5,820 bases of DNA from the IMG/VR virus record IMGVR_UViG_2778261154_000012; one strand, 5' to 3'. The DNA comes from a virus. Its lineage: Duplodnaviria > Heunggongvirae > Uroviricota > Caudoviricetes. Below the pieces are notes generated by a model, which worked only from the letters and a program-made list of their open reading frames with translations, was not told the origin of the DNA and did not search any database. The position numbers and the translations under genes are program-made. Shown one piece after another: positions 1 to 598 of the stretch (within the stretch, counting starts at the first letter, position 1; each line of letters opens with the position of its first letter).

Positions 1-25
1 CTAGTCTAAAAACTAGTATTAAGAC

Positions 26-45
26 TATCACTTATTTAAGTGATA
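26..45. promoter_or_regulatory. Perfect 8-bp inverted repeat TATCACTT-attt-AAGTGATA; candidate operator or protein-binding site
   Basis: Seen directly: 26-33 tatcactt and 38-45 aagtgata are exact reverse complements separated by 4 nt. It lies immediately upstream of the first possible start of the 50..598 ORF. A second short inverted repeat, ctagt-N6-actag, sits at 1-16. Function is inferred. Confidence 0.3.
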
Positions 46-49
46 CTGG

Positions 50-598
50 TTGTCTGGAGATTCAGGGGGCCAGTCTAAGAACTTCATCGACACTCTTGAA
101 AGCTGGCGTGACCAGAAACAGATTATTTCGGTCATCTGTAAAGACGGAATTAAAATTGATGATTCCATTATTACTAGTTTTAAAGCCTCTAAAGATGTTG
201 GTATTTCAAATGGTCTAAGAATCCAGCTAACTTTTCAGGAAATTAACTTTAAAGCTATTGTAGGGCAAACTGATGTCTCAGCAGCTACTGGAAAGACTTC
301 TACCACAAATGATGGTGGCGCTACCAGTAAAAAGAATACAGGGAATACTACAACGACATTAAATCAGCCTATGCTATCGTGCAAAGAATTAATGAATATT
401 AGCGATGTATCCGGTTACGCTCCAGCTATCAGAAATGATATTCTCGATGCTCAGATTAAATGTAATAAGGCTTGGAAGCTGGACTATTCAGACTTAACAG
501 AAGCTGAAAAAACCAACGTCACCAATGCTAATAGTAACGCTGGTCGAGTAGCTTCAAAGCTTAAAAAGTACTCAGTGAACCCTAACAAAAAATACTAA
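50..598 (+). CDS. Hypothetical protein, 182 aa: N-terminal domain, Thr/Asn/Ser/Gly-rich linker, C-terminal domain with two Cys
   Basis: A 549-nt open frame in AT-rich DNA, where stop codons should be frequent, argues for real coding. There is no in-frame ATG until about codon 108; the only upstream start is TTG at 50, with no convincing Shine-Dalgarno and an in-frame TGA at 41-43. The 5' end is therefore unresolved. The stop TAA at 596-598 overlaps the convergent recombinase stop by 2 nt. I recognise no family. Confidence 0.5.

What the first reader, a model, noticed from the sequence alone, without database searches (positions are those of the whole stretch)
1..598. 182-aa ORF with no usable start codon and an alternative frame open to the window edge
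The long open frame is credible coding sequence, but the first ATG is about 108 codons in, and the only upstream start is a TTG at 50 with no Shine-Dalgarno. Independently, the +3 frame is open from the window edge to about 230 (roughly 73 codons in AT-rich DNA). This could be a 5'-truncated or frameshifted larger gene, a leaderless mRNA, or a non-canonical initiation. The protein has a low-complexity Thr/Asn/Gly linker between two small domains, reminiscent of surface or secreted modular proteins.
Basis: seen in the sequence. Interest (0 to 1): 0.5.

Follow-up and report, generated by a model that had tools for sequence, protein, structure and literature searches.

The report
IS2-cut phage tail gene remnant
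The ORF has no start codon because it is the back two-thirds of a phage tail "tube initiator" gene that an IS2 insertion sequence cut in two; this is an ordinary pseudogene, though the small island it sits in deserves a separate look.

Summary
Window 1-77 is the terminal 77 bases of insertion sequence IS2. It matches about 20,000 IS2 copies in E. coli genomes. Homology to an intact 261-262-codon gene begins at base 78.

That gene is the Felixounavirus-type tail tube initiator (Pfam Dit_like; Bas63 gp18, PDB 9NDY, E 1e-115). A 381-kb contig of another E. coli assembly carries the same junction with the whole IS2, the missing 90-codon 5' piece and a 5-bp target duplication, AGAAC. This is therefore a simple IS2 insertion after Asn90.

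The TTG at 50 and the first nine codons of the ORF are IS2 sequence. The open +3 frame is a chance join of 25 stop-free IS2 codons to a 46-codon stop-free off-frame stretch. In intact homologues that frame is closed by a stop at the junction.

The fragment keeps only half of the Dit-like domain and has no promoter-like site and no Shine-Dalgarno. It is a pseudogene remnant.

"5'-truncated larger gene" was right. Frameshift, leaderless or non-canonical initiation and "secreted modular protein" were not.

Noticed in passing: the gene belongs to a roughly 11-kb serine-recombinase island that carries only Felix O1-like tape-measure and tube-initiator genes. I found no description of it; it may be a satellite or anti-phage island.

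The parts
1..77 (-). Terminal 77 bases of IS2: the left inverted repeat plus the leader upstream of orfA. The transposase gene lies beyond the window edge and reads leftwards.
   Evidence: Bases 1-90 match 20,752 places in 4,676 E. coli genomes. In L002 the match abuts an annotated 'IS3-like element IS2 family transposase', and the element ends ...GGCCAGTCTA exactly as at window 77. Bases 1-77 are identical in L006, where the complete IS2 is present.
78..82 (.). AGAAC, one copy of the 5-bp target-site duplication made by the IS2 insertion.
   Evidence: In L006 the gene reads ...GTGGAGAAC|TGGATTTGCC-IS2-GGCCAGTCTA|AGAACTTCATC. A 5-bp duplication is the known IS2 signature (established knowledge).
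78..598 (+). 3' remnant of the tail tube initiator (Dit-like 'phage baseplate protein') gene. Codons Asn90-Tyr261 lie at 80-595 and the stop at 596-598.
   Evidence: Alignment with the intact 789-bp gene starts at 78/79. The fragment is 95% identical to residues 89-261 of P0003. Hits: PF21821, phrog_3721, PDB 9NDY_A.
50..79 (+). TTG at 50-52 and the ten codons [10 protein letters not shown] of the called ORF. Nine are IS2 sequence and the tenth spans the junction. This is not an authentic start.
   Evidence: These bases lie inside 1-77, which is IS2. No Shine-Dalgarno is visible and no promoter-like site was found.
89..250 (+). Surviving C-terminal half of the tube-like Dit_like domain.
   Evidence: Pfam PF21821 matches fragment residues 4-57 to profile positions 66-118 of 127, at 32.7 bits. 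The intact protein matches profile positions 2-118 at 73 bits.
269..367 (+). Thr/Asn/Gly-rich linker ([33 protein letters not shown]).
   Evidence: Translation. The stretch is conserved in Felix O1 and Bas63 homologues.
368..595 (+). C-terminal extension module. It is specific to the island copies and diverged from the phage copies.
   Evidence: About 46% nt identity to Felix O1, against 94% among island copies. tblastn of 356-595 found no match in 50,697 phage records. In Bas63 the roughly 100-aa C-terminal extension spans the baseplate.
3..215 (+). The +3 stop-free stretch (71 codons). It is a chance feature, not a gene.
595..2118 (-). Large serine recombinase (507 aa), the integrase of the island. 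It is convergent with the remnant and its stop codon overlaps the remnant's by 4 nt.
   Evidence: ORF list. Pfam Resolvase, Recombinase and Zn_ribbon_recom are recorded for the identical protein. The same arrangement is seen in L001 and L003.
2209..2215 (-). Recombinase crossover core (TGATTTT on the minus strand) at the island/yecE junction.
   Evidence: The window junction cgggTGATTTTcatcagac was compared with the other island end in L003, ccttgaTGATTTTagacagc. The yecE fragment is the ORF at 2193-2594 (PF01904 DUF72).

Best explanation
The 182-codon ORF is the 3' remnant (codons 90-261) of a phage-type tail tube initiator gene that a copy of IS2 split in two.

IS2 inserted after the Asn90 codon and duplicated the target AGAAC. 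Window 1-77 is the IS2 end. The window is a whole draft-assembly contig that breaks inside the repeat.

The TTG at 50 and the nine codons after it are IS2 or junction sequence that happens to be in frame.

The intact protein would form a hexameric, tube-like ring on the trimeric baseplate hub around the tape-measure protein and would start tail-tube polymerisation. Its C-terminal extension threads across the baseplate.

The remnant has lost its start codon, its ribosome-binding site, its operon promoter and half of the tube-like domain. It is a non-functional pseudogene fragment.

Shown here: the IS2 identity, the junction, the target duplication, the homology and the domain loss. Inferred: lack of expression and lack of function.
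For: - IS2 end: bases 1-90 match 20,752 genomic places. The match lies next to an annotated IS2 transposase and has the same terminus.
- Breakpoint: homology to the intact gene starts at 78/79.
- Upstream sequence: L006 encodes the identical recombinase. Its sequence is identical to window 1-700. It shows the 5' piece, the complete IS2 and then the 3' piece, flanked by AGAAC direct repeats.
- Window identity: over the 700 bases aligned, the window matches contig NJNE01000136.1, which is also 5,820 bp long.
- Family: Dit_like PF21821; phrog_3721 over its full length; Bas63 gp18 'tube initiator protein', PDB 9NDY_A, E 1.4e-115; role from the cryo-EM paper PMC12609058.
- Gene order: the gene directly follows the tape-measure gene in Felix O1, in Bas63 and in the island.
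- Full length of relatives: of the 15 listed members of its 198-member 90%-identity cluster, every one except the query itself is 261 aa. The 182-aa form was seen on only 2 contigs.
- Expression signals: no promoter-like site in 1-700.
Against: No direct evidence contradicts this. Absence of expression is inferred, not measured: read-through or outward transcription from IS2, and weak initiation at the TTG or an internal ATG, cannot be excluded by sequence alone. The 5' piece of this particular assembly could not be fetched, so the target duplication is shown in the sister assembly L006.
Confidence: 0.96

Rival explanations
1. A hybrid gene is expressed. IS2 supplies a TTG start and nine codons, and the resulting IS2-TI fusion protein of 182 aa retains some activity, for example through the C-terminal module.
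For: The ORF is intact from the TTG to the stop. Automatic gene callers have called it, as STM76296.1 'Uncharacterised protein'.
Against: No Shine-Dalgarno is visible and no promoter-like site was found. The IS2 transposase promoter at this end points away from the ORF (orientation). Half of the Dit_like domain is missing. The same 77 bases end every IS2 copy, so the TTG is incidental. The form was seen on only 2 contigs.
Confidence: 0.03
2. This is a frameshifted or programmed-frameshift larger gene. Translation enters from upstream in the +3 frame and shifts into +2, for example at the G5 run at 65-69.
For: The +3 frame is open from the window edge to 215, and the G5 run lies where the two open frames overlap.
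Against: Bases 1-77, including the G5 run, are IS2 terminal sequence. In the intact homologue the equivalent frame is closed by a stop 6 nt upstream of the position equivalent to window 84, and is open for only 46 codons. Stop-free runs of this length are common in non-coding frames of this window.
Confidence: 0.005
3. The junction is an assembly artefact: a chimeric contig end wrongly joins IS2 reads to the gene.
For: The window is a short draft contig whose two ends are both IS sequence.
Against: An independent assembly has the same junction inside a 381-kb contig, with both IS2 ends, both gene halves and a 5-bp target duplication.
Confidence: 0.005

Closest known systems
Tube initiator protein gp18 of Escherichia phage Bas63 (JohannRWettstein), PDB 9NDY; equivalent to ORF165 of Salmonella phage Felix O1 (Felixounavirus)
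   Same: Same family and architecture: a tube-like Dit_like domain, a Thr/Asn/Gly linker and a C-terminal extension. The gene lies directly after the tape-measure gene. Window 83-354 is about 94% nt identical to the phage gene.
   Different: The window copy lacks codons 1-89. Its C-terminal 75-80 residues are only about 30% identical to the phage protein and have no tblastn match in phage records. It sits in a chromosomal island, not in a virulent phage genome.
IS2 (IS3 family) insertion pseudogenes in E. coli and Shigella
   Same: Exact IS2 terminus, a 5-bp target duplication, and a gene split into two pieces.
   Different: Nothing unusual. An independent IS2 insertion 45 bp upstream in the same gene and in the same orientation exists in S. 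flexneri SFBU1023.
[quoted passage not shown] 2023, PMC10055350 / PMC10448857)
   Same: For the host island only. Both are small integrated elements that carry a tape-measure gene and one baseplate component but lack most tail genes. Both have a replication initiator, some use a serine recombinase, and both show sequence exchange with virulent phages.
   Different: Those elements encode capsid and decoration proteins and RepA_N initiators, and most use tyrosine integrases next to tRNA genes. Here no capsid gene or RepA_N was recognised. Three of four island-carrying genomes checked are absent from their table. The fourth, strain C2, is listed at a different locus (2.52 Mb against 0.78 Mb).
PLE of Vibrio cholerae (satellite of the virulent myovirus ICP1)
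   Same: For the host island only. Both are islands of roughly 10-20 kb integrated by a large serine recombinase, and both show homology and exchange with a virulent myovirus.
   Different: No homology to PLE genes was tested or found. Induction, replication and packaging are untested.

Membership tests
Dit_like (PF21821) / Felixounavirus tail tube initiator (phrog_3721; PDB 9NDY) | Significant match to the family profile above the curated cut-off. | tested here: met
   The window fragment scores 32.7 bits against a cut-off of 24.2, but covers only profile positions 66-118 of 127. phrog_3721 E 4.7e-70. 67% identity to Bas63 gp18.
Dit_like (PF21821) / Felixounavirus tail tube initiator (phrog_3721; PDB 9NDY) | Complete tube-like domain and full-length collinearity (about 261-265 aa) with an initiation codon. 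| tested here: not met
   Only residues 90-261 are present. Codons 1-89 lie on the far side of IS2. It is therefore a pseudogene fragment of the family, not a functional member.
Dit_like (PF21821) / Felixounavirus tail tube initiator (phrog_3721; PDB 9NDY) | Gene lies immediately downstream of the tape-measure gene. | tested here: met
   In L006 the order is TMP_3 (726 aa), then the 5' Dit_like piece, IS2 and the 3' piece. The order is the same in L001, L003, Felix O1 and Bas63.
Dit_like (PF21821) / Felixounavirus tail tube initiator (phrog_3721; PDB 9NDY) | Forms a hexamer on the baseplate hub and nucleates the tube. | not testable with these tools
   Known only from the Bas63 cryo-EM structure.
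IS2 (IS3 family insertion sequence) | Terminal inverted-repeat sequence of IS2 ending ...GGCCAGTCTA. | tested here: met
   Window 1-77 is identical to IS2 copies in L002 and L006, and 20,752 matching places were found.
IS2 (IS3 family insertion sequence) | 5-bp target-site duplication. | tested here: met
   AGAAC lies on both sides of IS2 in L006. Only the right-hand copy (78-82) is inside the window.
IS2 (IS3 family insertion sequence) | Adjacent orfA/orfB transposase with a programmed frameshift. | tested here: met
   Outside the window. L006 genes with HTH_Tnp_1 and rve domains; L002 annotation 'IS3-like element IS2 family transposase, programmed frameshift'.
Phage satellite / phage-inducible island (for the host island only) | Has an integrase and a replication module but lacks a full set of virion genes. 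| tested here: met
   Large serine recombinase; a 310-aa HTH_36 protein matching PHROG replication-initiator families; only TMP and TI among structural genes. Six proteins remain unassigned.
Phage satellite / phage-inducible island (for the host island only) | Induced, replicated and packaged in dependence on a helper phage, or interferes with that phage. | not testable with these tools
No PADLOC defence family matched, and no paper was found.

The most novel reading that the evidence does not exclude
The remnant belongs to an apparently undescribed family of roughly 11-kb E. coli and Citrobacter islands that move by a large serine recombinase.

Their only recognisable virion genes are a Felix O1-type tape-measure protein and a tube initiator. 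The initiator's tube-like part is up to 97% nt identical to virulent Felixounavirus phages, while its baseplate-contacting tail is island-specific.

The most novel reading not excluded is that these are PLE-like satellites or tail-assembly-interference islands that parasitise or block virulent Felix O1-like phages by inserting their own tape measure and tube initiator into the phage baseplate.

The window copy itself is dead: IS2 sits in the initiator gene, and in the sister assembly IS1 has deleted the left part of the island.
Probability: 0.3. Interest if true: 0.65.

Novelty: already known. Interest (0 to 1): 0.15.

Why it matters
For the finding itself, very little. It is a routine IS2-disrupted pseudogene at the repeat-bounded end of a draft contig. 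The missing start codon and the second open frame are by-products of the insertion, so no unusual initiation or frameshifting needs to be invoked. The practical lesson is for annotation: the 182-aa protein is deposited as a real "uncharacterised protein" and should be marked as a pseudogene fragment.

The surrounding island is worth a separate look. If it proves to be a satellite or defence island aimed at Felix O1-like phages, that would matter for phage therapy and biocontrol, because Felixounaviruses are widely used against Salmonella and E. coli.

Tried and rejected
- An exact search for the IS2/gene junction in one genome per species found nothing. The insertion is confined to a narrow lineage; the 182-aa product is on 2 contigs only.
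- NCBIfam gave no family for the protein.
- PADLOC gave no defence family for any island protein except an orphan methyltransferase.
- tblastn against phage records found nothing for the island's 235-aa protein (named 'transposase' by PGAP) or for the remnant's C-terminal 80 aa.
- The island's 71-aa protein is not similar to Bas63 gp16.
- The promoter and terminator scan of 1-700 found nothing.
- Five literature searches found no description of a Felixounavirus-linked island or satellite.
- The E. coli satellites of Barth et al. were considered as the same family and rejected, because locus and gene content differ.
- I considered whether the sharp change in identity to Felix O1 at the IS2 site (76% upstream, 94% downstream) means the two halves were joined by IS2-mediated recombination. 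I rejected this because the S. flexneri allele has the same mosaic boundary with no IS2 there, and because the target duplication is intact.
- Frameshift, leaderless and non-canonical-start readings were rejected (see rivals).

Full report
**1. The observation**

The ORF is real and at the stated coordinates: 50-598 on the + strand, 182 codons, TTG start.
- Upstream stops in that frame lie at 2, 14, 20 and 41.
- The only in-frame start codons are TTG 50, ATG 371 (codon 108), ATG 392 and GTG 575.
- No purine-rich Shine-Dalgarno precedes the TTG (reading).
- The consensus scan finds no promoter-like site anywhere in 1-700, against a mean of 2.0 in shuffles.

The second observation needs correcting. 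The +3 frame is open over 3-215 (71 codons) with its stop at 216-218, not about 230. It is not remarkable either, because the window holds about 30 stop-free runs of at least 60 codons across its six frames and most of them are not genes.

**2. What bases 1-77 are**

A megablast of 1-700 against 5,426 complete E. coli genomes gave two kinds of match.
- Twenty-three genomes match from base 78-83 onwards. The annotation there is 'phage baseplate protein | recombinase family protein'.
- Thousands of places match only the first bases of the query.

Searching 1-90 alone gave 20,752 places in 4,676 genomes, median 3 per genome, on chromosomes and plasmids. That is the signature of an insertion sequence. 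In one such place (L002) the match lies just outside the start of an annotated 'IS3-like element IS2 family transposase'. The element there ends ...GGGGGCCAGTCTA, exactly as at window 77. Window 1-77 is therefore the left end of IS2, with its transposase gene lying leftwards beyond the window edge on the minus strand.

**3. The breakpoint and the upstream sequence**

Alignment with the intact 789-bp gene of E. coli A1 (L001 8736-9524) shows no similarity before window 78 and near-identity after it.

Looking up the window's recombinase protein found 12 contigs that carry it.
- One is a 5,820-bp contig, NJNE01000136.1 of GCA_002467185.1. It is the same length as the window and identical to it over the 700 bases aligned. 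The window is therefore a whole draft contig that ends in a repeat.
- Another is a 381-kb contig, UGFN01000001.1 of GCA_900450175.1 (L006), identical over window 1-700.

L006 reads, in order: the tape-measure gene; the 5' 90 codons of the gene, which start at an ATG preceded by AAGGAG...GTGGAGAAC|TGGATTTGCC; a complete IS2; GGCCAGTCTA|AGAACTTCATC...; then the window's ORF.

AGAAC is present on both sides. That is the 5-bp target duplication expected for IS2, so this is a simple insertion after the Asn90 codon. It follows that:
- The TTG at 50 and the codons MSGDSGGQS are IS2 sequence.
- Codon 10 (AAG) spans the junction.
- Authentic coding sequence resumes at AAC, 80-82.

**4. The +3 frame**

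Its first 25 codons are IS2. In the intact homologue the equivalent frame is open for only 46 codons and is closed by a stop 6 nt upstream of the position equivalent to window 84. The long open frame is a chance product of the insertion.

**5. What the gene is**

- The intact protein (261-262 aa) has a Pfam Dit_like domain (PF21821, residues 30-146, 73 bits). The window fragment keeps only profile positions 66-118 of 127.
- It matches phrog_3721 end to end.
- Its best match among solved structures is 9NDY chain A, 'Tube initiator protein (gp018)', E 1.4e-115. This is gp18 of Escherichia phage Bas63, a Felixounavirus.
- In Bas63 and in Felix O1 the gene directly follows the tape-measure gene, as it does in the island.
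- According to the cryo-EM paper (PMC12609058), the initiator forms hexamers that adapt the threefold hub to the sixfold tube. [quoted passage not shown]

This is an internal virion protein, not a secreted or surface one.

Of the 15 listed members of the 198-member 90%-identity cluster, every one except the query itself is 261 aa. The 182-aa form, deposited as STM76296.1 'Uncharacterised protein [Escherichia coli]', is on two contigs only.

**6. Verdict on the finding**

This is an IS2-disrupted pseudogene. The remnant lacks its start codon, ribosome-binding site, operon promoter and half of its fold. Non-expression is inferred, not measured.

**7. Context**

The gene is the last cargo gene of an island of about 11 kb. 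In E. coli TUM1881 the island lies inside yecE (L003, about 2804-15447, including a 1.3-kb IS). Its genes, in order:
- a Dam methyltransferase;
- a 310-aa HTH_36 protein that matches PHROG replication-initiator families;
- four small proteins of unknown function;
- a 235-aa protein of unknown function;
- a 71-aa protein of unknown function;
- the tape-measure protein (725 aa, TMP_3);
- the tube initiator;
- a convergent large serine recombinase.

No capsid, terminase, sheath, tube or other baseplate gene was recognised.

The recombinase junctions share the core TGATTTT within yecE. The reconstructed island site..CTTGATGATTTTCATCAGAC.., is an imperfect palindrome.

The same island sits elsewhere in other genomes:
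- In E. coli A1 it lies next to lpxL, inside a gene annotated only as an incomplete hypothetical protein. I read that gene as mdtG from its N-terminal sequence, from my own knowledge and not tested here.
- In Citrobacter sp. ANG330 it lies beside tonB. There the initiator is 67% identical and the tape-measure gene is cut by an IS21-family element.

A 10.4-kb island query matched 561 of 5,426 E. coli genomes at least in part. The top hits carry the same annotated gene set.

**8. Relationship to virulent phages**

The island tape-measure protein is only 33% identical to Bas63 gp17, although its N-terminal 45 residues and its C-terminal LLSSSxPExx motif are conserved.

The initiator gene is mosaic. 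Nucleotide identity to Felix O1, by alignment block:

| Alignment columns (A4) | Copy | Identity to Felix O1 |
|---|---|---|
| 31-276 | E. coli A1 and TUM1881 | 95-97% |
| 31-276 | window lineage | 76% |
| 277-545 | E. coli island copies (A1, TUM1881, window) | 87-94% |
| 546-807 (last 240-250 nt) | all island copies | about 46% |

Over that last block the island copies are 94% identical to one another. The C-terminal 80 residues have no tblastn match in 50,697 phage records.

This pattern indicates recent exchange between the islands and virulent Felixounaviruses for the tube-like part, with an island-specific baseplate-contacting tail.

I found no paper describing such islands. [quoted passage not shown] Those encode capsid proteins and RepA_N initiators, and they lie at other loci.

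A satellite or tail-interference role is therefore a reasonable but untested hypothesis. I give it about 0.3. The alternative is a stable remnant of a temperate relative. In the window's lineage the island is decayed in any case: IS2 sits in the initiator gene, and IS1 has removed everything left of the 71-aa gene.

**9. Scores**

- The finding itself is ordinary and already explained: interest 0.15, novelty 'already known'.
- The island is recorded under things noticed in passing and as the novel case.

Noticed in passing
L003 2804-15447; L001 about 700-11080; window 78-2215 is its right end: An island of about 11 kb bounded by large-serine-recombinase junctions. Its genes are a Dam methyltransferase, a replication-initiator-like HTH protein, six proteins of unknown function, a Felix O1-type tape-measure protein and the tube initiator, with no other virion genes. 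It lies in yecE here, next to lpxL in E. coli A1 and beside tonB in Citrobacter. Parts of it match 561 of 5,426 E. coli genomes. I found no description of it in the literature searched.
   Followed up: partly
window 83-354; alignment A4: The chromosomal initiator gene is mosaic with virulent Felixounavirus phages. Window 83-354 is about 94% nt identical to Felix O1-like phages. The 5' piece of the same allele is 76% identical and the last 240 nt about 46%. In other island alleles the first 540 nt are 87-97% identical to the phage. This implies recent exchange between the islands and lytic phages.
   Followed up: partly
L015 9907-10460 (Shigella flexneri SFBU1023): A second, independent IS2 insertion in the same gene, 45 bp upstream of the window's site and in the same orientation. 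The 3' end of that copy also diverges at about 10,460, perhaps cut by another IS (inferred from ORFs only, not checked). In several E. coli genomes and in Citrobacter the neighbouring tape-measure gene is interrupted by IS21-family elements. Whether repeated IS hits on these two genes reflect a hotspot, selection or chance was not tested.
   Followed up: no
window 5731-5820 and 5071-5700: The right end of the window is the end of an IS3-family element (IS1203/IS629-like, 24,720 matching places). It appears to truncate the 5' end of the SPFH/Band_7 gene: 209 aa here against 275 aa in L003. Both contig ends are therefore IS repeats, which explains the contig breaks.
   Followed up: partly
window 2193-2620: yecE (DUF72) is broken twice, leaving only a middle fragment. 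The serine-recombinase island is inserted on one side, at the core TGATTTT (2209-2215). A lambdoid prophage with a tyrosine integrase (2621-3934, minus strand) is on the other. yecE is a documented integration site for lambdoid and Stx prophages (PMC8112680).
   Followed up: partly
window 595-598: The initiator gene and the convergent recombinase gene overlap by 4 nt at their stop codons (TAC-TAA on the + strand, TAG on the minus strand). The overlap is conserved in L001 and L003. There is no room for a terminator between them, and none was detected.
   Followed up: no
L006 16392-17089: In the sister assembly an IS1 copy replaces the whole left part of the island and the adjoining yecE fragment, joining the 71-aa gene upstream of the tape-measure gene directly to yecN. 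This is further decay of the island in this lineage.
   Followed up: no
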